Of a stretch of 64,000 nt of DNA, positions 6,682 through 48,217 are shown in pieces. The notes beneath the pieces were generated by a model. The model searched no databases. It saw only the letters and a program-made list of their open reading frames with translations, and had not been told where the DNA came from. Position numbers and translations under genes: made by a program. This DNA comes from Azolla caroliniana (lineage: Eukaryota; Plantae; Polypodiophyta), in contig JBHGNT010000022.1 in assembly GCA_043228905.1 (NCBI GenBank), positions 12,152,001 to 12,216,000 of the forward strand, written 5' to 3'. The number at the start of each line of letters is the position of its first letter. Positions within the stretch are counted from its first letter, which is position 1.

Positions 6682-6766
6682 AATTACATTCATACAAACA
6701 TATACATACATATGTACATATGTATTGTGGGTTGACAATATGTATGCATGTCAGGAAGGAAGTTAA

Positions 6767-21007: not shown

Positions 21008-21079
21008 CTCCTCGGATAGGACTTAAACCTACAACCAATTAGTTACCAACCGACCGCTCTACCATTGAGCTATCGAGGA
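21008..21079 (-). pseudogene. trnN: Degenerate organelle-type tRNA-Asn (trnN-GUU) insertion
   Basis: Reverse complement TCCTCGATAGCTCAATGGTAGAGCGGTCGGTTGGTAACTAATTGGTTGTAGGTTTAAGTCCTATCCGAGGAG resembles plastid trnN-GUU as I recall it; anticodon and T-loop are mutated. Confidence 0.65.
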
Positions 21080-23624: not shown

Positions 23625-24560
23625 GATGAGGTGGTCGAGTTGGTCTAAGGCACCAAATTACGGTTCTACTCTGAAAGGGTATGGGTTCAAATCCCAATCT
23701 CATCATCGATGTAAAATAAACATGTAACATTTCAACAACAAGTTGATAGGGTCTAGATTAAAATTCTCGTTCGAAAGGGCGCACGTTCAAATCCCATACT
23801 CAATGTAAAATGAACATGTAACTTTTAGGCAACGAGTTGACATGGTCTAGATTAAAGTTCTCGTCCGAAAGGAACTAAGCTGCATTGGTCTAAGCCGCTA
23901 GATTAAGGGCATGAGCTCAAATCCAATGTCATCATCAATGTAAAATGAACATGTAACATTTAGGCTATGGGCTGATATTGTAAACGGAAAATAGATGAGG
24001 TGGCCAAGTTTTTCTAAGGCGATATATTAAGAGCATGGGTTCAAATCCCACCATCATCATCGATGTAAAATGAACATGTATTGTTTAGGAAACGAGTTGA
24101 TATAAAAAGGGAAGTGGATGAGGTGGCCGAGATGGATTAAGGGCATGTGTTCAAATCTCACCATCATCATCGATGTAAAATGAACATGTAACGTTTAGGA
24201 AACGAGTTGATATAAAAAACAGAAGTGGATAAGGTGGCCGAGTTGGTCTAAGGCGCTAGTTTAAGGTTCTAGTCCGAAAGGGCATGGTTTCAAATCCCAC
24301 TCTCATCATCGACCTAAAATGAATATGTAAATTTAGGCAATGAGTTGACTATGTAACACGATAAGTGGATGAGGTGGCCAAGTTTGTCTAAAGCGCTCGA
24401 TTAAGTTTCTAGTCCGAAAGGGCGTGGGTTCAAACCCCACTCTCATCATCGATGTAAAATGAACATGTAACTTTTAGGCTACGAGCTGATATCGTAAATG
24501 GACATGGATGAGGTGGCCGAGTTTGTCTAAGGCGCTAGATTAAGGTGCTAGTTCAGAAAG
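23625..24560 (+). pseudogene. Left, degenerate block of the tRNA-Leu(AAG) array (~8 units)
   Basis: Units at ~23625, 23750, 23845, 23994, 24117, 24228, 24368 and 24507, with internal deletions and the shared spacer tcgatgtaaaatgaacatgtaac. Confidence 0.85.
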
Positions 24561-24565
24561 TCGAG

Positions 24566-25045
24566 TGTTACCCGTATAGGTGTAATGTGGAAGGTGTGTA
24601 AGGTGTAATATGAAATGTTAATGTGTGAGTGTTAGGTGGGGTAAGTAGGTGTAGGTACATTGACTCGGCTTTTTGTAATGAGAAGATCTTGTATTATTTA
24701 AAACCCCACCCGTGGGGCATGAAAAAAGGAGAAATAATATTGAAGTTACCCTCAACTTGTGTATCAGTCTCAATTCCCTCTCTCTCATTCATTCTCACTC
24801 ACTCTCTCTGTGCATCTCTCCCTCCCTCCTCTCACATTCGAACCCCCTTGGGAGGGGGGTGGAGCCGATCTGTCTGTCTATCTGTCTCTCCTTCTATGCA
24901 TGTCTGTGTCTTTGTTAGGAAGTGGTGTGTGTGGACTCTCTCTATGAGAGCCAATCTGCGATGGCTATGGCGACGGAGCAAGAAGAACACCTATTAGATA
25001 TGAAAAAATGGTTTGATAAAGAAGCCCTAAATCAAGTGAAAGGTA
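24566..25045 (+). mobile_element. Probable LTR-element 5' fragment (short LTR, PBS-like site, gag start)
   Basis: Starts TGTTAC just after a truncated tRNA unit; TATA-like tatttaaaa; ...tcaac tt gtgtatcag PBS-like; short MAMATEQEEHLLDMKKWF frame. Confidence 0.4.
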
Positions 25046-27048
25046 CATTCTCTCTCCCTCCCTTTCTGTCTCTCTCTTCCCGTAGGGTTTGTCCCTACAA
25101 TGGCAAACACTCGAAACGCCGCCGCAAAGTTCGGGGGTGTGATTGATAATGAGCTAAGATCACCAACAAATCTCGATTCCAATGCAATGGACAAAATGCT
25201 TATGAGTCACTTGATTTCTCTTCAAGAAACCATAAGCAAGCAAGGTGAAGAGATTAGGACGTTAATGAAAGAGAATGCTAAGCTCCAAATTGTTGCAAAA
25301 CTTCGAGAAGAGATTCAAGAATGTAAAAGAGCTTCTTTCGAAACAAATGAGCGCCTTAACAAGATTGAGTTAAAGGAAGCATTAAAAGAAGAAAAATTGG
25401 ACATGATGAGGCAGGATGTAAGTGAGATGAAAAATGTATGTACAACGAAGTCATGGGCCGATGTATGTGGTGGGGATGTGGTATCAAACTCATCTAAAAT
25501 GCATGTGATGCATCAAGAGAAGAATATAGAAAACATAGATGTTCGAGAATTGAAAGAACGTGAACGATAATCAAAGAACATTGTTGTCCGTGGGATTAAA
25601 GAAGAGAGTATGGAAACACTCGCATCCCTTGGAAAGGTCATTGGTGAATTTTTTAGCATGCATTATGGGATGTCAGATGTGAATGTATATGGGGCACACC
25701 GAGTTGGGAAACATGGTGTTACTCGCTCCGGAGAAAGGCCTATTGTACGCACAATGACAGATGATACAAAGCGGCGGATCATACTCGAAAATAGTTGGGT
25801 ATACCTCAAAGGTACGAATGCTTTGTGAGTGAAGATCATACTATCTCACAACAAAATGCTCGTCATAAAGCATATGAAGAAAGATTGAAAAATAAGGTTA
25901 AGGATGTGCCTAAAGATGGAAATGTAGGCAAATAGGGACATGTGACCTATGAAACTAACCCACGCCTTTTACGACTATGCTTTTGGAATTGCAATGGATA
26001 CCCATGGAATGCGGGATTTGGCATAGAGGAGTTCACCGATGACTCAGATATCACACTTCTTGTTGAAACATGGGAGCATGATACTCAAAAGATTCAAGGT
26101 TTAGGAAACTATAATGTACACTCTTTGATATGGAAGAAAAATCCAAGACAAAGAAGAGGACAAGGAGGGGTGGCATGTTTGATTAAGAAGTGTAAAGAAT
26201 CAAGAGATGGATTCTTGTGAAGCGGAATAGGTGTGAACTGTGTGTGTATGTGTGTATGAGATAGAGAGAGAGACACACACACAGAGTATACGCAAGGTTA
26301 AGTATATTAGCAAAGGAGAAAGACTCAACATTTTACAAGGTGGGAGGAGGGTGCTTTATGTAGTCACCCTCTCTCTTCATTAACTACAAGGCTCATGGAG
26401 CATGGGGAATGTGAAAGCTCATAAGTTATGTGTCATAGAATATGATTCTATGACTCATACTAAATGCTAGAATACAAAGTGGTGACATAATGGTGACTCT
26501 TGACTGTTGGAGTGTCTCTTCACTCTCAAGGTGAGTTCACACACTAGACCAAGTTGAGCTTGATTCTCAACAAGAAGGAAATAGAGAAATATGTGTCAAT
26601 CATAAAAAATGATGAACATAAATGCTACATATGGCTCAAAATAGAAACACCTAATGATTTGCCCACTTTTGTAGTTGGATGTTACATTCCTCATCAAGAT
26701 TCTAACTTTTATGCTTGTTTGGATAAAGATCAACCTTTTGCCAATCTAGAAGATGATATTGCTGATTTCAAATCCAAAGGGGAAGTTATTGTCTTTGGTG
26801 ACATGAATACTCGTACAAGAAGTTTCCAACTTTATTCACAAGAATATTACATGCCACATATCTCAAGGATGCAAGAGGATATGCAAATTATAGCTACTCT
26901 TCTAGCGATGAAAAAGATCCGGACCAATTTGGGAAATTACTCCTACAAATGTGCAATAGTACCGGATTGCTTACTGCAAATGGTATTTCCTTATGGCCCA
27001 ACACTAATGGTTTTACATGTAGAAAACACAACGGAAATAGTGTGATCG
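25046..27048 (+). mobile_element. LINE retrotransposon 5' part: ORF1 and APE endonuclease of ORF2 (pseudogenised)
   Basis: ORF1 25100-~25935 (coiled coil, SWADV, NIVVRGIKE, AHRVGK); endonuclease motifs WNCNG, LVETW, GGVACLIKK, GCYIP, FGDMN, NG...FT. Confidence 0.9.
26191..26572. mobile_element. Solo LTR (382 bp) inserted in LINE ORF2
   Basis: TGTAAAGAATC...GATTCTCAACA termini with perfect 5-bp TSD AGAAG on both sides; removal restores ...LIKK|EIEKYV. Confidence 0.9.
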
Positions 27049-29803
27049 TGTTGAGCGAGCAAGCTCAACCAAATCCGGATTGGCTGAATAAGCCAGAGCC
27101 AGATCGGTATCCAGATGATATTTGGAAGGATGAGCCGGATCGGTATTCGGAAACAAGAGCCAGATCGGAGAGCCGGATTCGAGTGCAAACCGGAAGCCTA
27201 GTAGTAGCATAGACTACTAGGTAATCCTTGTCCCTTAGTTAGTGTCAGTTGCTCGTATGAGCATTGAAGTACATAGTACTTCTGTCAGTCCTTTTGAGGA
27301 CTTGTATAAATAGTGTTGTTTAGCACGTTGTATGTACAGAATGTTTTTATTATTTTGAATCTACGTTTACGTTCTGCTCTCTCTGTCTCTCTTGCGTATA
27401 CTCTCTGTGTATTAAGCTTCTCCATTAAACCTTCATCTTATTCTCTGTGCTATCCGGCTGAGCCGGTTCTGTCTAATGCTTCCGCATGTTAACATTCACA
27501 TGGTATCAGAGTGCGAGGGTTGAGAACCTCTGTAGCCGACACTTGCTTTCGTAGACGAACCCTAGAACCCGGTAACAATAGACAGAGAGAAGATATGGAC
27601 AAAGGAATGGCAAGTTCACTTCCAACAGAGAAGCTCGACCGGAGGAACTATGCGTCTTGGTCATACAAGATGCACTAGTACCTGCTGGGGCATGGATATT
27701 GGAGCTTTGTGGAAGGAACAAACGAGGTAGCGCCGGAGCCGGCACACGAGGACTTCCCGATATGGAAGCAAGGAGCGAGCCGAGTATTGTACTGCCTTGC
27801 ATCCTGTGTGCACGGCCAGATGCTCAACTACATAAAGGATGCAAAAACGCCAAAGGAGGCCTGGGGAAATCTGAGGAAGATTTTCGTCGCGAGTACCACA
27901 AGCCGTAAGTTGCAGCTCCGACAAGAGCTGAACAACATTCGACAAAGAGACATGTCGGTTACGGATTACACCCGATTACACCACCAAGATAAACGAGATT
28001 TGTGACGCACTCGGGTCCATCAACGTGAGGGTGGACGAAGATGAGATGGTACAAATTTGCCTCGGTGGTCTAGTGCAAAGGTATGAGCCAATTCGGACAA
28101 CGATCTGCACCCAGAGAAGCCATCGTCCTTCTTCGATTTACAATCAATGCTGATGATCGAAGAAAACCACGCGAGTGGGTCGAGGATCACTCAAAGGACG
28201 GTCGGATGCTATACATGGAGACAGATCGGCCCCATGGACGTGGTGGGTCAGCACACAATGGAGGCGGCCGACAAGAGCAGGACCGAAGGCACCGAGGTAG
28301 TGTCGACAACAGTTATAGACCCTCCACAAGCATGGGGAGTCAAAGTGACGTTGGAAGCCGGCAAGGAAAAGCCGACACGAAATGCAGGTACTATGGCAAA
28401 AAGGGTCACAGGGAAAGTGAGTGCTGGAAGAAGCGCACCGATTTGGACAAATCCGGATCTGGCAAGGCTGGTCGGGAAAACTGACAAAGCTCGCACTACC
28501 CGGAAGGATCAGAAGGATCCGAAATCGGGAAGACCGGTAAACAGGGCCAACCTTCGTAATGAAGTACAAGGCTAACTTGATGAAGAAGACTACTTCCGGA
28601 TCGGAGGAAGTATGGTACGTTGATTCCGGAGTGTCCAACCACATGATGAGCCATGAAGAGTGGTTCTCGTTTTTGGAGAAATCGGAACAACCGGGAATCG
28701 TCGAAACCGGAGACGACAACCCTCACTCGATTGTGCATGTTGGAGAAGTCCCTTTGAGCCATGTAAGATAGAAGGGGAAGCTGATGAACGTATTACATGT
28801 ATCGACAATCATAAAGAACCTGGTGTCGGTCGGGCAAATCGTTGACTAGGGGATGCAGGTGCGGTTTACGCACCTTGGGTGCTTCATAGAGGAAGAAGGC
28901 TAGATAATCGCGCAAGGGCGCAGAGAAAGGAGGATGTTCATCCTCAACACCAATGACGTCGCCACTGCCATGTTTGCCAAAGGACAACAGATTGAATCAG
29001 ACATCGACCTCTGGCATAAGCGGATCGGCCACGTCAATTACCGGAGGCTTCAGGACTTGCAATCAAAACAAGTTGTTTTCGGTTTGCTGAAATTTAGCAG
29101 CCGAAAGGCCGAAATTTGTGAAGCCTGCCAACTAGGGAAGCAACACCGGCTTCCATTCCCCACCGAACGAAACCGGAGTCATAACAAGCTCGACCTAATC
29201 CATTCGGATGTATGGGGACCGACACAGAATGTTAGCCTTGGTGGGAGTCGATACTTTGTCTCCTTCGTCGACAACTACAACTGGCACACATGGATCTACC
29301 TCATCGATAGGAAGAGCGAAATCTTCGAGTGTTTCCGGAACTTGCGGAGCTTAGTTGAATGGGAAACAGAGAGGAAGATAAAGTGCCTGCAGTTGGATGG
29401 CGGAAAAGAATACTTTTCCGGCGAATTCAACAATTATCTACAACAGAACGGAATTTGGAGAGAATTCAGCTGCCTATACACATCGGAACAAAACGGTGTA
29501 GCCGAGAGGAAGAACCGGTCGATTGTCGACGCAACAAGGGCAATGCTGGAGGAGAAGAGCATGCCCCAAGTCTACTGGGCTGAGGCAATCCGGACGACCG
29601 TCTACATCCAAAACCGGATAGGAGACAAGGTGTCAGCACACAAGTTGTATTTCGGGCGCAAGCCGAATTTGAGGCACCTTCGGATATTCGGTAGCATAGC
29701 ATATGTGCATGTACCGGATGAGAAGCGGAAGAAGCTTGATCTGAAGTCAAAGAAGTGCATCCTAGTTGGTTACTCGCATGAGCAGAAGGGGTATAAGTGT
29801 TAT

Positions 29804-30054
29804 CATAGTATGAACCATACGTACCATACATGCATTCGCATTCGCGAAAGAAAAACACCCTCAAAGGATGATAAATACCATACTTTTGGATTAACTATTT
29901 ATTATGAGGTAGATAAGCCTAAAAATGAAAAAAAAAACATTAAAAAAATGGGAAATAAAAAAACACACAAGAATGTTTGGATAAAATTCGCATTTGTTTT
30001 CCAACATAGGAAAACAAATGTTATACTTGACGAACACGAATTTTACGTACTATG
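29804..30054. mobile_element. hAT-type MITE inserted in the Copia A integrase
   Basis: CATAGTA...TACTATG TIR; 8-bp TSD agtgttat/actgttat; excision restores KGYKCYNP. Confidence 0.88.
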
Positions 30055-30896
30055 ACTGTTATAATCCCCAGGCTAAACAGGTACGAGTAAGTCGAGATGT
30101 CGAGTTTGATGAGTCGGCATCATGGTACCCTACCGACTCCAACTCCCGACGAAGACCTGATTTTGGAAGATGAGGCTAGTGAGCCCGAGGAGGTCCAGGA
30201 AGAAGATGAAGACTTCGGAACTCTAGAAGAGAATCCAATCTCATTCCGGCTAAGTGGGCCGAATGAGCGGCTGAGTCGAGATGACCAGTCGGTTGAAGAA
30301 TCGGCGAGTAGTGGAGACTCTACCTTGCGCTCCCCGCGCAAGGAACTAAGGAGACAATTCACGCGTAAAGAGAAAGGGAAGAAGAAGATGCCGAAATACG
30401 AAACTTGCAACATTGAGTCGGATTGGAGCGAATCCGACCCCGGAAAGGATGAAGGTGGATCTTCGGGAACAAAGTCCGAACCGGCCAAGAAGGGCCCCAA
30501 ACCGGGTGATGACAAGTTACGATGGTCTTCCCGCCAAAAGAACCCCGTTACGCGGTACGAGTACAATGAGTACATGGCGCATCACTATGTGTACATGACT
30601 AAGGTGGCGGAAGTGCGTGAGCCGGAGAGCTACGCAGAAGCGGCAAAGGACGCAAATTGGCATGCTGCTATGGAGGAAGAAATGCGGGCACTAGATGTCA
30701 ACGACACATGGGACCTGGTTGACCCTCGCCGATAGTGTAAACCAATCGGTTGCAAATGGGTGTACAAGGTAAAGTACAATGGCGACGGTTCGGTCAATCG
30801 GTACAAGGCCCGGTTAGTCACAAAGGGATACGCCCAGACCCATGGAATCGACTACGACGAGACCTTCGCTTCGGTAGCGAAGATGACGACGGTTCG

Positions 30897-31240
30897 TGTG
30901 GGGTTAGATATAGACAATAAGAAGAAAGAGTATGTCTATTATTAACCCTCTTTGCTAAGAGGTCTACCACCACAAGGAGAGAGATTAGTGTTCTCTAACT
31001 CAACACTTCACTTATCTCTCTCTCTTAGTTACAAGAAAGAGGAGAGGAAGCTCTAGCTCTAATCAATAGGAGATCTTTACAAATGGGAGAACCCCCACAA
31101 AGCCACTACTATGTGGTTTATATAGCTTTCACGTTTAGGGTATGGGCCTTTCACATTTGGCCGTCTCTTTGCTTTCCTTTCCTCTTGCCGTTTCCTCTTC
31201 GTACTACGTCCTGGTTGTGTTGTTATCCCAACGCTTAACA
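30897..31240 (-). mobile_element. LTR-like segment between Copia A RT and Copia B integrase
   Basis: Non-coding; ends ...CTTAACA, cutting Copia B at KCIFVG; no matching TSD. Confidence 0.5.
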
Positions 31241-33325
31241 CCAACAAAAATACATTTTTCTGCTTTTGGATCCAGCTTACTTCTTACTTCTGCAGGCACA
31301 TGTACATATGCAAGGCATCCAAACACTTTTAAGTGTTCTAAACTAGGTTTCCTTCCATAGAAACACTCTTCAGGAGTTGCTTCATGTACTCCCGATGTTA
31401 TACATCTATTTAGAATATAATTTGTTGTATTTACAACTTCTGCCCAATAGTACAATGGCATATTCTTCTCTGTCATCAAAGCCCTTGCAATGTTCACCAA
31501 TGTTCTGTTTTTCCTCTCAGCAACTCCATTTTGTTGTGGAGTATATCTACATGTGAACTGTCTTCTTATTCCTTGATTGCATAGAAAATCAGAAAATTCA
31601 TTGGAGAAATACTCTCCTCCTCCATCAGATCTTAAACATTTTATTCTTGTACCTGCCTGCTTTTCTACCATGCATTTAAACTTACGAAAACATTCAAACA
31701 CTTCACTTTTCTCTTTCATGAAGTACACCCATATTTTCCTTGAGCAATCATCAATAAAAGTTACATAGAATCAGCAGCCACTGATAGATGCATTCTAGTT
31801 GGTCCCCATACATCCGTATGTACCAAATCCAACAAATTTTTACTTACATGTCTTTCATGAGGGAATGACAACCTATTTTGCTTTCCATATTGACATGCTT
31901 CACATATCTTTCCCATTTCACAATTTTTCAGTTTTGGCAGTCCAGCCACTGCATCTTTTCTCAACATATTCTTTAGGGTTTGCATACTTATGTGGCCAAT
32001 CCTTTTATGCCACATTTCCACATATGAGACTACACTCATTCCATTTGCAAACATAGCTGAAATCTGTCTAGGCATATCAACATCCAAAATAAACATTCTT
32101 CCTTGTCGTTTTCCTTTTGCAATGAGCTTCCCATTCTTTTCTATATAGCATCCACTTTGCTTAAACTTTACTTGCATACCTTGCTCTACTATCTATCCAA
32201 CAGAAATTAGATTCTTAGCAAGATTTGGAACATGCATTACATTCAACATATACTTAGTCTTTCCTTTTTCTTCCCGCAATGGAATATCTCCAACATGTTC
32301 TATTTGGTGAACATAGCCAGGAATCTCTGGTTCTCTTAACCTTTCAAACCAGTTTGCATGTCCAATCATATGGTTAGATGCCCCCAAGTCTACATACCAT
32401 GTAAACTCTTCATTACATTTCTGTGAGCTTTCAGCCACTGCTGCTATCTCATGTTGTACCACAAATGCACCATCTTTTTCGCAATCTTCACTAGTTTGGG
32501 AATTAGTTATTCTGCTGTCTCTTTCCTCTTTGCTCATCATTTTGCTTCTTGTAACATTCAGCCTGTGTGTGGCCTGGTTTTCCACAATACCAACAACCAT
32601 CATCATTTACATATTTTTGCTTACCTCTACCTTGGTTGCTCCCCCTGCCTCTGTTGTTGTTTCTTCCTCTAATGGTTTGTTGTCCTCTTCCTTGATAACC
32701 ATTACTGTTGGTTCTTGCTGAGCCAAATCTTCCATGGCCTCTTCCTCGGCCTCTTCCAGCACTATTATATAGGGCTTGCTCCTCATTCTCAAGATTTCCT
32801 TTATTTACATCATCCATCTAATTCCTCTCTTCTACTACAAGCATTGAAACCAGATCTGGAAAGCTTGGGATACTATCCCTTGTAAGCATAGAGGTTTTAA
32901 AGCTTTTGTATTGAGGTCCTAAGCCTCTCAAGCATATTTCTACCTTATCATCATCTTCTATCTTTACATTGATAGAAGCAAGTGATTCACATATGCTCTT
33001 TATTTTCAAGGCATACTCATTTATTAACATCTTACCTTTTTCTAAGGTATTTAGCTCAGTCTTCAACTGTAGCTTTCTAGCTTTTGTGTTTACTGCAAAC
33101 AGTTTTACCAAACTGTCCCAAGCTTCTTTTGGGAGCATAGCATCATGTATGTGCCCAAGCATCGAATCTGAGATGCTAAGTGAGAGCCAATGCATTACCT
33201 TCCTTGCCCCTTGATTCCAATCTTTGAATGCGTTAATCTGTGCTGCTGTGGCATTTTCTTCTGGGATCTCCGGAGCCTCTTCGAGGTCTCCTTCAATGTA
33301 ATCCCAATATCCTTTCCCCATTAGG
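31241..33325 (-). mobile_element. Ty1/Copia element B internal fragment (gag-PR-INT), inverted
   Basis: GYWDYIEG gag, CWYCGKPGHTQAEC zinc knuckle, WYVDLGASNH, MWHKRIGH, HTDVWGP, RSDGGGEY, QNGVAER. Confidence 0.92.
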
Positions 33326-33920
33326 AATGCGAAGATCACGCACTGGTTGCATAAGATGGGGTTTGTGACCTCTAAATCCGACTCATCGTTGTTCATCAGG
33401 CAAGGTCCGGACGGTCCGGTTTGCATCTTACTTTATGTAGATGATTTAGTCATCACCGGACCCAGACTCAATGAAATCGGCTGTGTCAAGGCCCAACTGT
33501 CGGACGCATTTGAGATGAAGGACCAAGGGGACCTTCATTATTTCCTTGGGATCAAGGTGATCCGAACCCCCGACGACTATGTATTGAATATGTCGTACAA
33601 GTTCGGCATGATGGAATGCCGACCTGTCTCCACACCCTCAGACCAAATTGAGAAGCTATGTCTCGACTCCGGACCGGACTGCGATGAGAAACGGTTCTGA
33701 CAAATAGTCGAAAGCCTGATATACTTGACAATCACCCGACCCTACATCAGTTATACGGTTGGTGTGATCAGCCAATTCATGCAGAAGCCAACCGTGGAGC
33801 AGCTTCAATGCGCACATCGAATATTGCGGTATGTGTGCGGCACGAAGGATCGGGGACTGTTATACCGACATGGTATAACTGAAGAGCTAGTTGGAGCTAG
33901 TTTATATCCTAAATGGAAGT

Positions 33921-33988
33921 GGATGAGGTGGCCGAGTTGGTCTAAGGCGCTAGATTAAGGGCATGGGTTCAAATCCTACTCTCGTCAT
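33921..33988 (+). pseudogene. Isolated tRNA-Leu array unit with 3' anticodon stem and variable arm deleted
   Basis: gatgaggtggccgagttggtctaaggcgctagattaag|ggcatgggttcaaatcctactctcgtca. Confidence 0.85.
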
Positions 33989-34024
33989 CGATGTAAAATG
34001 AGCTTGTAATGTTTAGGTGATGAG

Positions 34025-34848
34025 TGTTAAGAAAACGTGAAGAAGGCACTCGGGCTCTTCTTATGTGCGTGGCGGATCGTGGTGTGCTAGATCATTTAGT
34101 GCTCAAACACAGAAGGGAAGGGGGAAGGAGACTTACCTCTGTAGCAGCCAAAACTTCTTCTATTTCATTACACGCGGAGCTCTACTTGCTCTCGTCTGTT
34201 TCTCTCTTTTGCTCTCACTCTCTGAGTTCTTCCTCTCTTTCCTCACTCTCTCTCTCAGAGTTCTACTTCCTGTGTTTCTTACTTACCTACTCTCTTACTT
34301 TTTACCTAAGTAATAAGTTACTTACGTATGCAACTAATTAGCTGTCAGTCGCTAAATAGCTGTCAGTAGCTAATTAGCTGTCAGTCGCTAAATAACTGTC
34401 AGTAGCTAATTAGCTGTTTCTCCTTTATGTTCACAAGTAGCTAAATAGCTACTATAGCTTATTTCCCAATAAGCATCACATACCATGTTGAGCTTGCTTC
34501 TCAACACTCCCCCTCAAGCTCAACTTATCCTTTCTTGGGGTTATCTACAACTTCTTTTCCATGATGCTTTTCAGCCATCATATCAGTGTCTACAACTCCC
34601 ATCATGTTCCGAAACAGTGTAAGCTTTTCGACACTCAATCCCTTTGTGAGAATAACAGCAACCTGCTGATTTGTATTCACATACACCAGATCAACTTCTC
34701 CTTCAATCACTTTTTCTCTAACAAAGTGATAATGCACTTCAATGTGCTTTGTTCTTGCATGGAACACTGGGTTTTTTGCAAGCTGAATGGTGCTCATGTT
34801 GTCACACCAGATTGTGACAGTACCGTCTATATACTCTCCCAAATCAGC
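34025..34848 (-). mobile_element. Copia 3' fragment: RNase H end, PPT and 3' LTR
   Basis: CDN...NPVFHARTKHIEVHYHFVRE; PPT ctccccctcaag at 34507; LTR 34025-34506 TGTTAAGAA...TTCTCAACA with internal ctaattagctgtcagt repeats. Confidence 0.9.
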
Positions 34849-34902
34849 CTCATCATCGATGTAAAATGAATTGGCTGAGAACTGATATTCTAAAAAGAAG
34901 TG

Positions 34903-37900
34903 GATGAGGTGGTCGAGTTGGTCTAAGGCGCTAGATTAAGGTTCTAGTCCGAGAGGGCGTGGGTTCAAATCCCACCCTCATCATTGCTCGATGTAAAATG
35001 AGCATGTAACATTTTGGTGACGAGCAGATGTCCTAAACAAAAGTGGATGACGTGGCCGAGTTGGTCTAAGGTGCTAGATTAAGGTTCTAGAAGGAAAGGG
35101 CGTGGATTCAAATCCCACCCTCATCATCGATGCAAAATGAATTGGCCGAGAACTGATATTTATATAGAAGTGGATGAGGTGGCCGAGTTGGTCTAAGGCG
35201 CTAGATTAAGGTTCTAGTCCGAAAGGGCGTGGGTTCAAATCCCACCCTCATCATTGCTCGATGTAAAATGAGCAGCATGTAACGTTTTGGTAACAAGCAC
35301 ATATTCGAAAAAGAAGTGGATGAGGTGGCCGAGTTGGTCTAAGGCGCTAGATTAAGGTTCTAGTCCGAAAGGGCGTGGGTTCAAATCCCACCCTCATCAT
35401 TGCTCGATGTAAAATGAGCATGTAACATTTTGGTGACGAGAATATGTCCTAAACAAAAGTGGATGACATGGCCGAGTTGGTCGAAGGCGCTAGATTAATG
35501 TTATAGTAGGAAAGGGCGTGGATTCAAATCCCACCCTCATCATCGATGTAAAATGAATTGGCCGAGAATTGATATTCTAAATAGAAGTGGATGAGGTGGC
35601 CGAGTTGTTCTAAGGCGCTAGATTAAGGTTCTAGTCCGAAAGGGCGTAAGTTCAAATCCCACCCTCATCATTGCTCGATGTAAAATGAGCAGCATGTAAC
35701 GTTTTGGTGACGAGCACATATTCTAAAAAGAAGTGGATGAGGTGGTCGAGTTGGTCTAAGGCGCTAGATTAAGGTTCTAGTCCGAAAGGGCGTGGGTTCA
35801 AATCCCACCCTCTTCATTGCTCGATGTAAAATGAGCATGTAACGTTTAGGTGACGAGCAGATGTCCTAAACAAAAGTGGATGACATGGCCGAGTTGGTTT
35901 AAGGCGCTAGATTAAGGTTCTAGTAGGAAAGGGCGTGGGTTCAAATCCCACCCTCATCATCGATGTAAAATGGATTGGCCGAGAACTGATATTCTAAATA
36001 GAAGTGGATGAGGTGGCCGAGTTGGTCTAAGGCGCTAGATTAAGGTTCTAGTCCGAAAGGGCGTGGGTTCAAATCCCACCCTCATCATTGCTCGATGTAA
36101 AATTAGCAGCATGTAACGTTTTGGTGACGAGCACATATTCTAAAAAGAAGTGGATGAGGTGGCCGAGTTGGTCTAAGGCGCTAGATTAAGGTTCTAGTCC
36201 GAAAGGGCGTGGGTTCAAATCCCACCCTCATCATTGCTCGATGTAAAATGAGCAGCATGTAACGTTTTGGTGACGAGCACATATTCTAAAAAGAAGTGGA
36301 TGAGGTGGCCGAGTTGGTCTAAGGCGCTAGATTAAGGTTCTAGTCCGAAAGGGCGTGGGTTCAAATCCCACCATCATCATTGCTCGATGTAAAATGAGCA
36401 GGTAACATTTAGGTGACGAGCAGATGTCCTAAACAAAAGTGGATGACGTGGCCGAGTTGGTCTAAGGCGCTAGATTAAGGTTCTAGTAGGAAAGGGCGTG
36501 GGTTCAAATCCCACCCTCATCATCGATGTAAAATGGATTGGCCGAGAACTGATATTCTAAATAGAAGTGGATGAGGTGGCCGAGTTGGTCTAAGGCGCTA
36601 GATTAAGGTTCTAGTCCGAAAGGGCGTGGGTTCAAATCCCACCCTCATCATTGCTCGATGTAAAATGAGCAGCATGTAACGTTTTGGTGACGAGCAGATA
36701 TTCTAAATAGAAGTGGATGAGGTGGCCGAGTTGGTCTAAGGCACTAAATTAAGGTTCTAGTTCGAAAGGGCGTGGGTTCAAATCCCACCCTCTTCATTGC
36801 TCGATGTAAAATGAGCATGTAACGTTTAGGTGACGAGCAGATGTCCTAAACAAAAGTGGATGACGTGGCCGAGTTGGTCTAAGGTGCTAGATTAAGGTTC
36901 TAGTAGGAAAGGGCGTGGGTTCAAATCCCACCCTCATCATCGATGCAAAATGAATTGGCCGAGAACTGATAATCTAAATAGAGGATGAGGTGGCCGAGTT
37001 GGTCTAAGGCGCTAGATTAAGGTTCTAGTCCGAAAGGGCGTGGGTTCAAATCCCACCCTCATCATTGCTCGATATAAAATAAGCAGCATGTAACGTTTTG
37101 GTGACGAGCACATATTCTAATAAGAGGCACATATTCTAGTCCGAAAGGGCGTGGGTTCAAATCCCACCCTCATCATTGCTCGATATAAAATAAGCAGCAT
37201 GTAACGTTTAGGTGACGAGCACATATTCTGATAATCTAAATAGAGGTTGAGGTGGCCGAGTGGTCTAAGGCGCTAGATTAAGGTTCTAGTCCGAAAGGGC
37301 GTGGGTTCAAATCCCACCCTCATCATTGCTCGATGTAAAATGAGCGTGTAACGTTTAGGTGACGAGCAGATGTCCTAAACAAAAGTGGATGACGTGGCCG
37401 AGTTGGTCTAAGGCGCTAGATTAAGGTTCTAGTCCGAAAGGGCTTGGGTTCAAATCCCACCCTCATCATTGCTCGATGTAAAATGAGCAACATGTAACGT
37501 TTTGGTGACGAGCACATATTCTAAAAAGAAGTGGATGAGGTGGCCGAGTTGGTCTAAGGCGCTAGATTAAGGTTCTAGTCTGAAAGGGCGTTGGTTCAAA
37601 TCCCACCCTCTTCATTGCTCGATGTAAAATGAGCATGTAACGTTTAGGTGACGAGCAGATGTCCTAAACAAAAGTGGATGACATGGCCGAGTTGGTTTAA
37701 GGCGCTAGATTAAGATTCTAGTAGGAAAGGGCGGGATTTGAATCCCACCCTCATCATCGATGTAAAATGAATTGGCCGAGAACTAAGATTCTAAATAGAA
37801 GAGGATGAGGTGGCCGAGTTGGTCTAAGGCGCTAGATTAAGGTTCTAGTCCGAAAGGGCGTGGGTTCAAATCCCACCCTCATCATTGCTCGATGTAAAAT

Positions 37901-38444
37901 GAGCATGTAACGTTTAGGTGACGAGCAGATGTCCTAAACAAAAGTGGATGACATGGTTGAGTTGGTCTAAGGCGCTAGATTAAGGTTCTAGTCCGAAAGG
38001 GCGTGGGTTCAAATCCCACCCTCATCATTGCTCGATGTAAAATGAGCATGTAACGTTTAGGTGACGAGCAGATGTCCTAAACAAAAGTGGATGACATGGT
38101 TGAGTTGGTCTAAGGCGCTAGATTAAGGTTCTAGTCCGAAAGGGCGTGGGTTCAAATCCCACCCTCATCATCGATGTAAAATGAATTGGCCGAGAACTGA
38201 TAATCTAAGTAGAAGTGGATGAGGTGGCCGAGTTGGTCTAAGGTGCTAGATTAAGGTTCTAGTCCGAAAGGGCGTGGCTTCAAATCCCACCCTCATCATT
38301 GCTCGATGTAAAATTAGCAGCATGTAACGTTTTGGTGTCGAGTAAATATTCTAAAAAGAAGTGGATGAGGTGGCCGAGTTGGTCTAAGACGCTAGATTAA
38401 GGTTCTAGTCCGAAAGGGCGTGGGTTCAAATCCCACCCTCATCA
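34903..38444 (+). tRNA. Core tandem array of tRNA-Leu(AAG): 25 full-length units plus 1 half unit
   Basis: 81-nt consensus GATGAGGTGGCCGAGTTGGTCTAAGGCGCTAGATTAAGGTTCTAGTCCGAAAGGGCGTGGGTTCAAATCCCACCCTCATCA: acceptor GATGAGG/CCTCATC, anticodon stem CTAGA/TCTAG with loop TT-AAG-GT, variable arm CC-GAAA-GG, discriminator A. Consensus-identical copies start at 35173, 35319, 36007, 36153, 36570, 36984 and 37804. Confidence 0.95.
35173..35253 (+). tRNA. tRNA-Leu(AAG), representative intact copy
   Basis: Complete cloverleaf with A box TGGCCGAGTTGG and B box GGTTCAAATCC. Confidence 0.95.
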
Positions 38445-38501
38445 TTGCTCGATGTAAAATGAGCATGTAACGTTTAGGTGACGAGCAGATGTCCTAAACA
38501 G

Positions 38502-41500
38502 AAGATCTGGTGTCGGTATGGATGTCCGATAGAGTTAATAAGTGACCAAGGTGGGCACTTTTTAGGTCAAGTAGTGGAAAGTTTGACGACATTCTATGCG
38601 GTGGTGCACAAACGGAGCACTCCCTATTATACGCAAGCCAACGGATTAGCCGAGTCAACAAATAAAACACTACAGAACATCCTTCGAAAAATCGTCAATG
38701 AGAACCAGACGGATTGGGATACAAAGCTACACAGTGCACTCTGGGCCTATCGAACGGCATATAAGACAAGTATCCGCACAACACCGTTTCTCCTAGCATT
38801 CGGATTGGAATCAGTGATGTCGGTCGAGTTCCAGGTACTGAGTTTACGAATACAGATTCGGGAACGCCTAAATGAGAAGGAATCGGAAGCGATCCGGTTA
38901 GCCGCACTGTGCGAATTGGAAGAACACGGCTAGCCAGCATCATGCACCTAGAACTTGAGCAGCAGCGAAGGAAAGCGTTCGTGGACCGTCATCGAAAAGG
39001 GAACGAAAAGATGTTTGGAATCGGTAAGCCGGTACTAGTATTCTAGACCTGGATGGGTAAGATGTCGGGGAAGCTACGGTTTCGGTGGACCGAACCATAC
39101 TGGATTACGCGTGAGTTCAACGGTTCCTACCAGTTAGGGACACTTGCCAGCGAGGTTCTAGGTAAATGGGTCAATGAGTTCTGACTCAAACCATACAATG
39201 GACCCATGCCAAGAAACCCATTTGAACAAGTAAAGACCGACACAGAACCGGACACCAGTAAGTCGGAAGAGACGGCAACACATTTAGCAATCGGCAAGCG
39301 CGAAGTCGGTAAGAGGGAGCACGAGCCGGCAAACAACAAGAACGACGCGACGACAAGCAATCCAGCGGCCAACAAGTCCCACAATCTGGATAGGGTTCCA
39401 GTGGGACTAGATGCGAATTAACCAAACCATTTTTATTAAAAAATATATAATAAAAAATAAAAAATCAAATCAAATCAAAGTAAATCATGCAAAGGTGAGG
39501 GGTGAACGGACACATGCAAGAACAAGGAGTGAACATGCACTTTGAAAAGGTACGTAGTGGGCTATTAATAGGATATTAAACCGCCGCCACATGGCACGTC
39601 ATTCTATTTTAGTACACGACGTGCACACACGTGAGTAAGAAAAAAGGCGTCAACATGCAGCAAGAAAACTCCCACCGCGTGGAAGCCTTCACATTTCACG
39701 AACAAACGAGCACAGGCGATTGAAGATCATTAGACGTGAGCCCACGCACACAGAGCCTCCTCAAACACACCCCTCACCAGCGCTCACCGACCTCGATGAA
39801 GCCATGGACTGCCAAGCACTCTCTGAAGCGGCCAAGAAGTGGCCAAGGCAACACGGGTTAGAAGGTTTCCTCACAATCATGGAGGCTCCACCGCACCAGG
39901 AGGCGGAGAAGATAGTAAAGGAGATCGACACGGAACTTATCACGGAGGCCATCCATGCTTTGATTGGCCTTCCGGAGGGGGGCATCTTCACTATCGACAA
40001 CCCTACCCCATAGCAGCTTCGAAAATATTTTGGGGAATACTCTCTGGCCAGCAAGGCTTACCAGACACAGGGCGGCGAAGATCCCCTATTTCGAGAGATT
40101 GCCCATGTACTCCATGAATTTGGACATGTATACCCTCGACCCCCGTGCATGCCTTAGAACCAAGCCGGCTTAATCATAGCAACATATGAAGGCGTGAAGG
40201 TGGACTGGCCAGTACTAATTGCAGATGGCCTCTGTGTGGCCATCGACTCTGTAAGAGGCAAGGAGGGTTGGAAGATATGGACGGCACTGGCGCAATGGCT
40301 CACCCTATTGGCGCCACCTATCGAGCCCGTCAAGACCACAAAGTGGGGAAGAACAACCGAAGGCACCCCGAAAATGGCCTTGAAACGACAACAGTTGTTG
40401 GCCTCTAAGGCAACCAAACGGAAGGCGGCCGACACGGACCAGGCGGCAAAGGAGTGCGCCAATAGGAAGCGGTAGGTGGAAACGCAGGAGGAGCCACCGG
40501 CACGGCCAATCAAGATCAGACTTCACCAACCGGTTCAACAAGAGCCGGACCCCTTGGCAGCAAAAATCAACATCGGGACTCAGGAGAAGGAAGTGGAGGA
40601 GGAACCGTTAGAGCACCTCCAGCAGCGCCAGAAGGCAAGCACCTCCGAACAGGCCGGGGAGCGTTCGGACCCAAAGAAGGATGGAACGCCTCTACCCCGC
40701 ACTGAGCATCCCGCACCAAGGGTGGAATCGGAACCAGTTCGGACAGAACCGGTCACAGAGCTCCCTGCACAACAAGCTATACCGGCAGGTCAAGTTACGG
40801 CAAGACCCGAAATGCAAGCGCCGGAAGTACAGTGGCCTACCCCACCGGCAAGTCAAGAGCAATCAGAGGCAGAGCGGCCAACGGAGCCACAACCAGAACC
40901 AAAACGGCAAAGTGGTCACCAACCAGAGACAAAGTTGCATCTCAACGCAACCGGACAAAGCCGACCACTAGCCAGCGACACCAAAAGCCAACCCTCCGAG
41001 CAGACGCAACAACAGGACACCGGCAACCAATGGCTCCGGTGGATTGGAGAATAAATTGCCGGAGTAGTGCAGTACATAGAGGCGGAAGAGAAAGCGCAGA
41101 TGGACCGGTTGCTCGTCACAACCGGAGAACTAGAGACGGCCCGGTCAAGGATCCGGAGCCTAAAACAAGACTTGGACCTGGCCACAGAAGAATTGGCCAA
41201 AATGGCCTTAACCGGACCACCGATCCAAGCACCGGTGACTCCGGTAGATGTACAGAATAAAGACACACCGACACCTGTACATAACAATAAGACCCCGGAG
41301 ACGGAACCAATCCCGGAGATAGTGGCGGCGCAAGCAAAAGAGCTTGTTGAATTGAAAGATGAACTGGCCGCACAAGAAGCATTACGCACCCGAGAAAGGG
41401 ACTTGAAGAAAGCGGCAGAAGAAGAACAAAGGAAGACTGTTGAGAACCTCCGCCGGGCAGAAGACAATTTGCGGAAAGGACATCAAGCATATGACCGGCT

Positions 41501-43151
41501 TAAGGAGGAGAAAGAGAAAGCGCTGCAAGAAATGGAGAAGCTGTTACGGATGGCGGAAACGGAGATTGAAAGACTTAAAGAAGAACTCTGTCAATAGAAG
41601 GATCGGGAAGACTGCGCTCGCCGGCAACTCAACCAGAAGTTGAAGCAAAAGACCGATGATTTTGAGCACCTGCACCGGGACTACAAGCACTTGGATACGG
41701 AGCATAAGAAATAGCAAGAGAAGATGGCAGAGCTCCGGTAGGAGGTGCATCGAGCGGAGATGGCGCTAGCGGAGGAACAGGTTGAAAGAACCACGCTACT
41801 GGAGGAAGCCGCGCAAGAACGTATAGAGCTCCATAACCAGCATTATGAAGAGAAGGAAAGAGCGACAATGGTATTGCGGAGGTTGCAAAACACCTACCAA
41901 CACCAATTGTCACATTACCGGGAGCGGGAGGCGGACACGTTGGCGCTGATCAAGCAATTGAAGGAAGAACAGCAAGCCACGGAGGACAAATCGAAGATGG
42001 GATTGGAGCGGATCCAGTTCATTGTCCAAGCATGGAGGAACAAGACAAAACGCTTGATTGACGAAAGCTCCGTGCAATGGTGGGACAAATGGGCAAAACA
42101 AACAGCCGAGCTCCAGTTGCTAAGGGCGGACGCGAAAAACCGGCAGAAGGATGACGACGACGGTTACATGCTAACAAAGGAGGACTTCACCGCCGTAAGA
42201 GATGAGTTAGCCGAAGATTTTGTAACTCTAGCGAAGGAACAATCAGCAGTGGTCCGGCAACTGGTAGCACAGCTGGACGATGATCGATTGGATGCTCAAA
42301 TCCAGTTTGAAAGCTATGAGCGGACCAGGCTACGGAAAGAAGACGCAAAGCATGCGGCGACCGTCAACCTCAGCGATGAGGAGCCATCGCCGGAGCAAGG
42401 ACTGGATGGAGACAAGGCCAGGTCGAGTCAACCGGAGTCAAATCCAACAGAGCAGCTAACGGAGGAATCATCGCCACAACCGCCAGTACCGAGAGCCGAA
42501 CAGACGCCATCTAAGGAGCAACAATCGGAGGAGCTGGAGCCACAACAACAACAGCAACATCAGCAACATCAGCCGCAACAACAACAACAACAGAGTTCCG
42601 AAGAACCATTGGATACCCTGGAGCAGAGTATTCTGGATATCTTGGACGAAGGCTAAGGGCCGGATAGTGGGATTCGACATACAAGGTACTGTCCCACAAG
42701 CGTGCAATGTGTTACCCGGCCGGCAAAGGAGTTAAAGATCAGAATGTGAAAGGGATTGTTATTCGGAATCTATTTTACTTAAGTAGAATAGTGGGACATG
42801 AACGGACGGACCGGAATCGGTATGCCGATCCGGATCCGGACCGGTTCTGAACGGGTGCCGGTTGGCACCGTTTTGTACTCAGCACCGGTGACCTATATAA
42901 AGGCCCAGTTACAATGTAAAACTTTGATGGATAATTAATAGAGCTTCTTGTTTTATCCTTAAGTGTTGATTACCGTTTTGTACTAATTGTTCTATCATAC
43001 GTGTGTATCGAATTTAATGCCATATTGCTAAGTAGCCAATTAAGTCTGATTAATCGTTGTGTCTTAAGTTATCTCGCCGTAACACCCCTTTGGTGAAGTG
43101 TCTTCCGTAGACACCCTGTGTTAGGCCATTGTCCGGCCCTAAGGATTAACA
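38502..43151 (+). mobile_element. Ty3/Gypsy 3' half: integrase, extra ORF and 3' LTR
   Basis: RYGCPIELISDQGGHF, QANGLAESTN, ALWAYRT integrase; extra ORF 39804-42656; LTR ~42757-43151 (TGTTA...TTAACA) after gaaagggat; an alternative LTR start at 42710 is possible. Confidence 0.88.
39804..42656 (+). pseudogene. Gypsy accessory ORF (~950 codons; P/Q/E-rich linker, long coiled coil) with in-frame stops
   Basis: ORF-track pieces 39720, 40194, 40476, 41067 and 41745 share one frame, separated only by TAG/TAA codons. Confidence 0.8.
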
Positions 43152-45007
43152 AAGGGCGTGGATTCAAATCCCACCCTCATCATCGATGTAAAATGAATTG
43201 GCCGAGAATTGATACTCTAAATAAAAGTGGATGAGGTGGTCGAGTTGGTCTAAGGCGCTAGATTAAGGTTCTAGTCCGAAAGGGCGTGGGTTCAAATCCC
43301 ACCCTCATCATTGCTCGATGTAAAATGAGCATGTAACGTTTTGGTGACGAGCAGATGTCATAAATAGAAGTGGAGAGACGTGGCCGAGTTGGTCTAAGGC
43401 GCTAGATTAAGGTTCTAGTCCGAAAGGGCGTGGGTTCAAATCCCACCCTCATCATTGCTCGATGTAAAATGTGCATGTAACGTTTTGGTGACGAGCAGAT
43501 GTCCTAAACAGAAGTGGATGAGGTGGCCGAGTTGGTCTAAGGCGCTAGATTAAGGTTCTAGTCCGAAAGGGCGTGGGTTCAAATCCCACCCTCATCATTG
43601 CTCGATGTAAAATGAGCATGTAACGTTTAGGTGACGAGCAGATGTCCTAAACAAAAGTGGATGACATGGTTGAGTTGGTCTAAGGCGCTAGATTAAGGTT
43701 CTAGTCCGAAAGGGCGTGGGTTCAAATCCCACCCTCATCATCGATGTAAAATGAATTGGCTGAGAACTGATAATCTAAGTAGAAGTGGATGACATGGTTG
43801 AGTTGGTCTAAGGCGCTAGATTAAGGTTCTAGTCCGAAAGGGCGTGGGTTCAAATCCCACCCTCATCATCGATGTAAAATGAATTGGCCGAGAACTGATA
43901 ATCTAAGTAGAAGTGGATGAGGTGGCCGAGTTGGTCTAAGGCGCTAGATTAAGGTTCTAGTCCGAAAGGGCGTGGGTTCAAATCCCACCCTCATCATCGA
44001 TGTAAAATGAACGTGTAATGTAAAACAGAAGAGGATGAGGTGGCCGAGTTGGTCTAAGGCGCTAGATTAACTTTCTAGTGCGAAAGGGCGTTGGTTCAAA
44101 TCCCATCCTCATCATGGATGTAAAATGAATGTATAACGTTTTTGCAACAACTGATGACCTAAGTGGAAGTGGATGAGGTTGATGAGTTGGTCTAAGGCAA
44201 TAGATTAAGGTTCTAGTCTGAAAGGGCGTGGGGTCAAATCCCACTCCTATCATCGATGTAAAAGTAACATGTAATGTTTTGGCAACGAGTTGATGTCCTA
44301 AGCAAAAGTGAATGAGGTGATCGAGTTGGTCTAAGGCGCTAGATTAACTTTCTAGTGCGAAAGGGCGTTGGTTCAAATCCCATCCTCATCATGGATGTAA
44401 AATGAATGTATAACGTTTTTGCAACAACTGATGACCTAAGTGGAAGTGGATGAGGTTGATGAGTTGGTCTAAGGCAATAGATTAAGGTTCTAGTCTGAAA
44501 GGGCGTGGGGTCAAATCCCACTCCTATCATCGATGTAAAAGTAACATGTAATGTTTTGGCAACGAGTTGATGTCCTAAGCAAAAGTGAATGAGGTGATCG
44601 AGTTGGTCTAAGGCCGGTAGATTAAGGTTCTCGTCCGAAAGGGCGTGGGTTGAAATCCCACTCCTATCATTGATGTATGATATCCTAAATGGAAGTGGAT
44701 GAGGTGGCCGAGATGCTCTAAGGAGGTAGATTAAGGTTCTCATCCGAAAGGGCGTGGGTTCAAATCCCACTCTCATCATAGATGTAAAAATAATATGTAA
44801 CGTTTTGGCAATGAGACAAGTCCCTCCGGATGGGACGTGTTCGACAGTCGGATCCGGAAAGTATTCGAAAACTTGATCGAGCCATAGTGGATTAGAGGCA
44901 CAGATATTTTTAAATGTATGGAAGTGGATGAGGTGGCCGAGTTTGTCAAAGGCGCAAGATTAAGGTTCTAGTCCGAAAGGGCGTGGGTTCAAATACCACT
45001 CTCATGA
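43152..45007 (+). tRNA. Right block of the tRNA-Leu(AAG) array (13 units plus a 3' half), degenerating rightwards
   Basis: Units start at 43230, 43373, 43517, 43660, 43788, 43916, 44034, 44172, 44311, 44449, 44588, 44698 and 44927; 43517 and 43916 are consensus-identical. Confidence 0.92.
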
Positions 45008-47659: not shown

Positions 47660-47677
47660 TATCCTCTTAATCTACCA

Positions 47678-48210: not shown

Positions 48211-48217
48211 TCTGCTG

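What the first reader, a model, noticed from the sequence alone, without database searches (positions are those of the whole stretch)
23625..45007. ~50-unit head-to-tail tRNA-Leu(AAG) array behaving like a satellite
Seen: about 50 same-strand units (manual count) at mostly 128-146 bp period; 9 are identical to a perfect cloverleaf with intact A/B boxes. Known: plant tandem tRNA clusters exist (Arabidopsis Ser-Tyr and Pro clusters, largely methylated). I do not recall a Leu(AAG) array of this size and compactness. Inference: either a dosage amplification, a source of tRNA fragments/siRNAs, or a TFIIIC-dense chromatin organiser or barrier between genes.
Basis: partly seen in the sequence, partly recalled or inferred. 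Interest (0 to 1): 0.85.

Follow-up and report, generated by a model that had tools for sequence, protein, structure and literature searches.

The report
Fern leucine tRNA gene satellite family
A fern genome holds 50 head-to-tail copies of one leucine tRNA gene, split into blocks by jumping genes; it is likely one of many such arrays, in which intact genes likely found new runs of copies that then decay, which would explain how some ferns came to list thousands of tRNA genes.

Summary
The repeat is real: 50 same-strand tRNA-Leu(AAG) units, 9 identical perfect cloverleaves. It is not one 21-kb array. Only about 6.7 kb is repeat, in three blocks plus a lone unit, separated by retroelement wreckage. 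The young core is a 417-bp three-unit repeat; the edges are older. The host is a fern (protein hits); species not established. Public DNA contigs show a large family: hundreds of contigs carry this tRNA body, some with alleles and spacers absent here, and another species label carries a similarly large family with different flanks. Recent copies decay neutrally (tRNA as fast as spacer; stems break at the chance rate; 11 of 38 full-length units keep all stems). Yet between unit classes the tRNA is almost frozen while spacers diverge, and the three long-lived stem changes keep pairing. Best reading: birth-and-death tandem amplification, founded by intact genes, mostly silent afterwards. This is a variant of known plant tRNA homoclusters (Arabidopsis Ser-Tyr-Tyr). 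No expression or methylation data were obtained. The scan noted a similar tRNA-Ala run in another genome; no sequence match to this one.

The parts
23625..24560 (+). Block A: 9 old, decayed tRNA-Leu(AAG) units; several share a 15-bp deletion between the anticodon and variable arm; last unit cut in the variable arm
   Evidence: 78-86% identity to the young consensus
24561..33900 (.). Retroelement stack: LINE-like piece (weak endonuclease hit) with a solo LTR (26191-26572, 5-bp target duplication), a Copia element (+) with a nested Copia (-) and a MITE-like insert; ends in a deletion-type junction
   Evidence: Pfam; junctions; sequence
33922..34024 (+). Lone unit of the block A type (same 15-bp deletion), cut in its spacer by an LTR
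   Evidence: (groups with block A units in the tree)
34025..34847 (-). 3' LTR, purine tract and RNase-H-like end of a Copia-type element, truncated against block B
   Evidence: junctions; ORF; RNase H identity is my reading, Pfam gave no such hit
34848..38504 (+). Block B: 26 young units, mostly a 417-bp higher-order repeat of three unit classes (146, 143, 128 bp); the 128-bp class has a broken acceptor stem and, in 6 of its 7 copies in this block, a broken variable arm
35173..35253 (+). Reference copy: intact type-II tRNA-Leu(AAG) gene, one of 9 identical copies (35173, 35319, 36007, 36153, 36570, 36984, 37804, 43517, 43916)
35173..35589 (+). One full 417-bp higher-order unit (146 + 143 + 128 bp)
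38505..43151 (+). 5'-truncated Gypsy-like LTR element (integrase remnant, long coiled-coil ORFs, 3' LTR about 42707-43151) ending inside a tRNA unit at about position 50
   Evidence: LTR end is high-copy in DNA runs
43152..44033 (+). Block C, young part: 7 units (first one cut) of the block B classes
44034..45007 (+). Block C, old edge: 7 diverged units including a 277-bp dimer duplication
   Evidence: 83-86% identity to the young consensus
44779..44926 (+). Longest spacer (148 nt; 229-bp unit), repeated after the last unit; likely the ancestral spacer from which the 37-65-nt spacers shrank
   Evidence: direction of change inferred

Best explanation
This is a tandem run of 50 tRNA-Leu(AAG) gene units in a fern, split by retrotransposons, and it is likely one locus of a genome-wide family that grows by birth and death: intact genes likely found new head-to-tail runs through unequal recombination, after which most copies decay neutrally and are likely silenced. 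Shown: the units, the 417-bp three-unit repeat, older edges, the interruptions, equal recent decay of tRNA and spacer, a nearly frozen tRNA between unit classes, and many more copies in public DNA contigs. Inferred: unequal crossing-over or slippage as the copying step, spacer shrinkage from a 229-bp unit, methylation, and that a minority of intact copies are transcribed and keep the founding lineage functional.
For: Recent decay is neutral: within spacer classes 34 alleles in 243 tRNA sites against 27 in 174 spacer sites, p 0.68 (26 of 27 core units classed); unit-to-class distance 2.2% vs 2.1% (class B), 4.0% vs 4.3% (C), 1.2% vs 2.4% (A). 18 of 24 stem alleles in 29 core units break the pair, 17.3 expected; no compensatory change inside any of 38 units. 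Stem-breaking G6C stands in 11 units, G7A in 6, C47A+C48G in 5. Long-lived lineage is constrained: old consensus vs class A or B differs at 1 of 81 tRNA sites but 9 and 8 of 56 spacer sites (p 0.001, 0.003); A vs B 0 of 81 vs 6 of 62. That one change turns G-U into G-C in the acceptor stem; the old T is 88% and 95% of depth in runs X3 and X2. The anticodon-stem pair 30-44 is T-A here, C-G in 2-3% of X1 depth and about 99% of X10 depth, mixed in X11 and X14. Three of three such changes keeping a pair has a rough chance of 0.02. Family size: 453, 490 and 462 contigs lie on one unit in X1, X11, X14; G49A, absent from all 38 ungapped window units, is in 49 X1 contigs; X1 shows many tandem joints with other spacers. 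Summed depth on the tRNA body is roughly 100-350 times that on the window's own spacers in X1, X2, X3 (not a copy number). Transitions favour CG/CHG sites: 9 of 10 vs 15 of 33 CHH sites, p 0.026. Precedent: Arabidopsis Ser-Tyr-Tyr array, unequal crossing-over and drift (PMC2886086); clustered genes silent and methylated (PMC7544208 abstract).
Against: No RNA, methylation or Pol III data. The CG/CHG excess is only p 0.055 in the 29 core units, and CpG is not depleted in the array (observed/expected 0.84-0.91). A frozen tRNA between classes could come from gene conversion among tRNA bodies rather than function. Class C fixed 4 stem-breaking changes and was amplified anyway, so intactness is not needed for every copied unit. 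In old edge units the tRNA has decayed less than the spacer (7.7% vs 13.9%, 9.1% vs 16.5%), which neutral decay alone does not predict. The 3-of-3 figure is post hoc and two of the three changes are methylation-type transitions. No genome was available, so other loci are seen only as short contigs.
Confidence: 0.62

Rival explanations
1. Pure inert satellite: one tRNA gene seeded a tandem repeat that was never under selection again; gene conversion among the many tRNA bodies keeps them alike.
For: Neutral recent decay and amplified broken units; no T4 run in +1..+25 of any of 38 units, T4 by +45 in 18 of 38; none of the 9 exact copies has CAA at -10..-3; retroelement island context.
Against: Long-lived stem changes keep pairing. 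The young core fixed C74 against a family majority of T74, so the outside pool is not overwriting it. Class C kept 4 private tRNA changes, so conversion inside the array is weak. CAA and T-runs are generally weaker outside angiosperms (PMC13437025 section 7).
Confidence: 0.18
2. Selected dosage or conditionally active cluster: the array supplies extra tRNA-Leu(AAG), perhaps in one tissue or as read-through multi-tRNA precursors, as proposed for the Arabidopsis Ser-Tyr-Tyr cluster in root tips.
For: 11 of 38 full units keep all stems; the same tRNA is expanded in a second species label with other flanks; units lacking a T4 run would allow read-through; reactivation of the Arabidopsis cluster is reported (passages in PMC13437025).
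Against: No purifying selection among recent copies; broken units copied in register; three interruptions tolerated.
Confidence: 0.1
3. Mobile-element origin: the unit is a tRNA-headed SINE, or a tRNA gene carried by a transposon, that disperses the family and then expands in tandem.
For: Hundreds of contigs with a shared short 3' flank; in X11 and X14 the family shows almost no short tandem joints, so its unit there is longer or dispersed; SINE-derived satellites exist in reptiles (PMC10702118 abstract).
Against: The unit is a complete cloverleaf with pair-keeping history, not a decayed head; upstream flanks are shared among copies (agreement 0.69-0.78 in the largest groups), unlike independent insertions; no poly(A) tail or target duplication in the units.
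Confidence: 0.07
4. Chromatin barrier or TFIIIC-dense organiser kept between the flanking genes.
For: tRNA genes act as barriers and fork-pause sites in yeast and animals (bioRxiv 10.1101/412247, passages); B-box positions 62-70 carry no substitution in 29 ungapped core units.
Against: The array lies within retroelement debris on both sides, 3-5 kb from the nearest genes; loop sites are not significantly more conserved than stem sites when matched for base (p 0.33 and 0.19); the invariant B-box G is changed in 3 of 29 core units.
Confidence: 0.03

Closest known systems
Arabidopsis chromosome 1 Ser-Tyr-Tyr tRNA array (PMC2886086 abstract and section 17; PMC7544208 abstract and section 13)
   Same: Same-orientation tandem tRNA genes, a three-unit repeat, broken genes towards the ends, unequal crossing-over with drift as the model, intergenic location.
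   Different: There three genes of two isotypes, about 500 bp per gene, Pol III flanks conserved, one locus. Here one isotype, 128-146 bp per gene, no T4 within +25, retroelement interruptions, and a family with hundreds of contigs and species-specific flanks.
Plant tDNA homoclusters: Brassica napus chrA9 (26 Ile-AAT in 4.0 kb), maize chr2 (39 Ile-AAT in 18 kb), B. oleracea chrC5 (9 Leu-TAG in 26.7 kb), Ceratodon Ile/Cys runs of up to 26 identical genes (PMC13437025 Table S3 summary sheet; PMC12652284 parts 1-2)
   Same: Single-isotype tandem clusters; the B. napus one is about as compact.
   Different: No Leu(AAG) homocluster and no fern row in the summary sheet read; those clusters are a small share of each genome's tRNA genes.
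Azolla filiculoides tRNA gene excess: 7,848 annotated genes and over 10,000 tRNA-like sequences (PMC13437025 Table S1; PMC13578239 section 5; bioRxiv 10.1101/2021.12.21.473619 passages)
   Same: A fern with a very large tRNA gene and pseudogene count; ascribed there to genome duplication and repeats without a described structure.
   Different: The window's species was not established; the texts read do not describe tandem arrays or which isotypes are expanded.
SINE-derived satellites of squamate reptiles (PMC10702118 abstract)
   Same: Tandem repeats built from a Pol III-type unit, lineage-specific, modest array length.
   Different: Those derive from parts of SINEs; this unit is a whole tRNA gene with pair-keeping history.

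Membership tests
Functional nuclear tRNA-Leu(AAG) gene | Cloverleaf with AAG anticodon, long variable arm, discriminator A | tested here: met
   Met by the consensus and 11 of 38 ungapped units; not by the rest
Functional nuclear tRNA-Leu(AAG) gene | Internal A and B boxes | tested here: met
   Present in the 9 exact copies; box positions are recalled from general tRNA knowledge
Functional nuclear tRNA-Leu(AAG) gene | Pol III terminator (4 or more T) in +1..+25 | tested here: inconclusive
   0 of 38 within +25; 18 of 38 within +45, including 6 of the 9 exact copies; weak terminators are common outside angiosperms
Functional nuclear tRNA-Leu(AAG) gene | Transcribed, processed and charged | not testable with these tools
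   No raw RNA reads were offered
Plant tDNA homocluster (Hummel et al. 2026) | At least 5 genes of one isotype within 5 kb | tested here: met
   24 ARAGORN genes in 3.5 kb of block B, 23 Leu(AAG); definition
Plant tDNA homocluster (Hummel et al. 2026) | Methylated and silent, as in Arabidopsis | tested here: inconclusive
   CG/CHG transition excess p 0.026 (38 units) and 0.055 (29 units); CpG o/e about 0.9; no bisulfite data
Plant tDNA homocluster (Hummel et al. 2026) | Minor, localised share of the genome's tRNA genes | tested here: not met
   453-490 contigs per run on one unit, with alleles and spacers absent from the window
Satellite DNA | Head-to-tail monomers with higher-order repeat, homogeneous core and diverged edges | tested here: met
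   417-bp trimer; edges 78-86% vs core classes A and B 92-100% to the young consensus
Satellite DNA | Long high-copy arrays in heterochromatin | tested here: inconclusive
   Longest block here 3.7 kb; other loci seen only as contigs; no genome
Satellite DNA | No constraint on the monomer | tested here: inconclusive
   Met for recent changes, not for class-level changes
tRNA-derived SINE | tRNA-like head plus body and simple-repeat or poly(A) tail with target-site duplications | tested here: not met
   No tail or duplication in the 50 units; whole tRNA retained
tRNA-derived SINE | Dispersed single insertions with unrelated upstream flanks | tested here: inconclusive
   Largest loose-end groups share upstream flanks, but 124 rows were not shown and no genome could be scanned

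The most novel reading that the evidence does not exclude
Runaway tRNA genes: in this fern lineage tRNA-Leu(AAG) has been amplified to hundreds or thousands of copies more than once, each time with a different flank, because Pol III-active intact genes promote their own tandem duplication; such self-amplifying tRNA arrays, not translational demand, account for the roughly 7,800 tRNA genes listed for Azolla, and the terminator-poor 128-146-bp units are read as multi-tRNA precursors.
Probability: 0.25. Interest if true: 0.72.

Novelty: new variant of a known kind. Interest (0 to 1): 0.45.

Why it matters
tRNA gene copy number is used as a proxy for tRNA supply, and the extreme fern count (7,848 in Azolla) is unexplained in 2026 reviews, which suggest duplication, repeats or fast growth. 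If arrays like this one make up that excess, the count measures repeat dynamics, not translation, and curated databases hold thousands of likely silent genes. The array-specific alleles (T30-A44, C74) make the question directly testable by tRNA-seq. The contrast between a frozen founding lineage and neutrally decaying copies also offers a compact test of whether Pol III activity drives tandem amplification.

Tried and rejected
Whole-genome scan: no genome is held for this window. Expression: no RNA holder listed; X15 gave 1 contig, on the LTR only, and X17 none; X14 is probably DNA; none of this is evidence either way. Junction check at 43151: no listed contig bridges it, but 3,164 pieces were not shown, so the junction is neither confirmed nor doubted. 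Targeted insertion of the Gypsy-like element into tRNA genes: other LTR ends run into a primer-site-like or mixed sequence (agreement 0.39-0.44), no listed joint into a tRNA; not supported, list cut. One element spanning 24566-43151: no matching target duplication; rejected. Promoter-only conservation: loops vs stems not different. Three short motifs seen in or derived from run contigs were sought in the window: 1 chance-level match, 0 and 0. ARAGORN's Ile, Val and Glu calls inside the array are mutated or misfolded Leu units. Earlier scan findings by sequence: none. Literature: 10 searches gave no description of a fern tRNA-Leu(AAG) tandem family. Two supplements that may bear on this could not be seen: the supplementary discussion of Li et al. 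2018 (PMC6786969, file too large), which I recall, unverified, as discussing very high tRNA counts in Azolla and Salvinia, and the tables of PMC12652284, which include one fern.
Full report
Observation. nhmmer with window 35173-35253 finds 50 matches between 23625 and 45005, all on the + strand, 9 of them exact. ARAGORN genes in that span and Rfam passes 36. The exact copy pairs in all stems, with anticodon AAG, a long variable arm and discriminator A. 32 of 49 spacings are 128-146 bp. The count and the nine identical copies are therefore right. The array is not continuous: units cover about 6.7 of 21.4 kb, as block A (9 units, 23625-24560), a lone unit (33922), block B (26 units, 34903-38504) and block C (14 units, 43151-45007).

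What lies between. Pfam finds Copia gag, integrase and reverse transcriptase domains on both strands in 27.6-33.7 kb and a weak endonuclease hit at 25.9 kb. The ORF remnant at 38478-38933 matches retroviral-type integrases. Junctions show a solo LTR with a 5-bp target duplication, an LTR starting in the spacer of the lone unit, an LTR ending inside a tRNA at 43151, and three deletion-type joins. The whole region from about 21.5 to 47.4 kb is a retroelement island between a cupin-like gene and a 3'-5' exonuclease gene followed by topoisomerase I. The best named relatives of both flanking proteins are from Adiantum and Ceratopteris, at 69-74% and 44-51%. The host is a fern; the species was not established and no genome is held.

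Internal history. Block B is mostly a 417-bp repeat of three unit classes, 146, 143 and 128 bp. Units at both outer edges are 78-86% identical to the young consensus and mostly group together in the tree. The last two units have a 148-nt spacer whose ends resemble the short spacers, so shrinkage from a 229-bp unit is inferred. This fits repeated unequal exchange in the middle of an older array, the model proposed for the Arabidopsis Ser-Tyr-Tyr array (PMC2886086, abstract and section 17).

Recent copies decay neutrally. Within spacer classes, the tRNA carries 34 alleles in 243 sites and the spacer 27 in 174 (p 0.68). Of 24 stem alleles in 29 core units, 18 break a pair against 17.3 expected, and no unit of 38 has a compensatory change. 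Only 11 of 38 ungapped units keep all stems. An acceptor-stem break stands in 11 units and was copied with the trimer. No unit has four T within +25; 18 of 38 have them by +45; CAA at -10..-3 occurs before 10 of 38 units, none of them an exact copy. Such flanks are weaker outside angiosperms anyway (PMC13437025 section 7). Transitions hit 9 of 10 CG/CHG sites against 15 of 33 CHH sites (p 0.026; core only p 0.055), but CpG is not depleted overall, so methylation is likely, not shown.

The founding lineage is constrained. Between old and young consensus the tRNA differs at 1 of 81 sites and the spacer at 8-9 of 56 (p 0.001-0.003); classes A and B differ at 0 of 81 and 6 of 62. The one change makes a G-U acceptor pair G-C. 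Class C is the exception, with 4 fixed stem-breaking changes. In public DNA contigs the anticodon-stem pair 30-44 appears as C-G (2-3% of depth in X1, about 99% in X10), as a mixture in X11 and X14, and as T-A here. All three long-lived changes keep pairing, which has a rough post hoc chance of 0.02. Gene conversion could also hold tRNA bodies together, but the core kept C74 against a family majority of T74 (88% and 95% of depth).

The family is larger than this locus. Of 17 runs listed, 8 were laid. On one unit, 453 contigs of X1 (organism A), 490 of X11 and 462 of X14 (organism D, two studies) and 6 of X10 aligned. X1 shows many tandem joints with spacers not in the window, and 49 contigs with an allele absent from all 38 ungapped window units. 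X11 and X14 cover only the tRNA body, none of the window's spacers, and have their own shared upstream and downstream flanks; a minor flank of similar type appears in X1 and X2 and not in the window. X2 (organism B) and X3 (organism A, another study) hold the window's spacers at low depth, with the tRNA body roughly 100-350 times deeper. Summed contig depth is no copy number, so 'hundreds or more' is an inference from contig counts. These data make an invented repeat unlikely, but unit number and junctions were not confirmed.

Mechanism. Most likely (0.62) a birth-and-death tandem family: intact genes found runs, runs turn over by unequal exchange, most copies decay and are probably silenced as in Arabidopsis (PMC7544208 abstract and section 13), and retroelements accumulate. 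Whether founders are favoured by selection on tRNA or by Pol III-linked recombination is open; tRNA genes are fork-pause sites in yeast (bioRxiv 10.1101/412247 passages). Rivals: inert satellite 0.18, dosage or conditional cluster 0.10, mobile-element origin 0.07, barrier 0.03.

Comparison with what is known. Plant homoclusters are known (PMC12652284 parts 1-2 of 4; PMC13437025 sections 7, 10, 14 and passages). The 5-genes-in-5-kb summary sheet of Table S3 (part 1 of 23 read) lists an equally compact Ile cluster in B. napus, one plant Leu homocluster (TAG), no Leu(AAG) homocluster and no fern. Azolla filiculoides is listed with 7,848 tRNA genes and over 10,000 tRNA-like sequences (PlantRNA 2.0 preprint passages); the 2026 review ascribes this to duplication and repeats (PMC13578239 section 5). 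The main text of Li et al. 2018 does not discuss nuclear tRNA genes in the passages found; its supplementary discussion could not be read and may already report high counts. Ten paper searches found no description of this family.

Verdict. A real feature, a new variant of a known kind: a member of the plant tRNA homoclusters by definition, working like a satellite in its recent history, and unusual in being part of a high-copy family with species-specific flanks. Interest 0.45. The bold reading, that self-amplifying tRNA arrays explain the fern tRNA excess, has probability about 0.25.

Noticed in passing
window 21008-21079 (-): Lone decayed tRNA called Thr(GGT) by ARAGORN; it looks to me like a mutated plastid tRNA-Asn(GUU) copy (recalled, not tested).
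   Followed up: partly
window 47667-48211: Three tandem copies of a 179-bp unit just upstream of the 3'-5' exonuclease gene, with a B-box-like motif on the minus strand; no tRNA call by ARAGORN or Rfam. Possibly another Pol III-derived tandem repeat.
   Followed up: partly
window 42670-42710: The Gypsy-like element has no clear purine tract before its 3' LTR but a tRNA-3'-end-like stretch, as other notes on this genome describe for a Gypsy lineage.
   Followed up: no
window 43060-43150: The last 90 bases of this LTR are about ten times deeper in DNA contigs than the rest of the LTR laid, so this end is shared by a much larger family.
   Followed up: no
window 6425-6690, 6770-6970 and 29806-30060: A short element with inverted ends (MITE-like) occurs three times, once inside the Copia integrase region (read).
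   Followed up: no
window 21640-21700: Another faint tRNA-like remnant (A-box- and B-box-like pieces) between the Thr-called gene and block A.
   Followed up: no
window 54590-57060: Topoisomerase I gene with a very long (about 780 codons) acidic and lysine-rich N-terminal region in a single exon.
   Followed up: no
window 35046, 35462, 35879, 36442, 36859, 37388, 37947, 38090, 43660, 44311: The only units with an upstream CAA at -10..-3 are ones with broken acceptor stems; probably linkage within the trimer.
   Followed up: partly
run X10 on window 35127-35318: Holds a deep short contig of the C30-G44 tRNA form with adapter-like ends, plus one shallow contig that joins two tRNAs through the window's class B spacer.
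   Followed up: no
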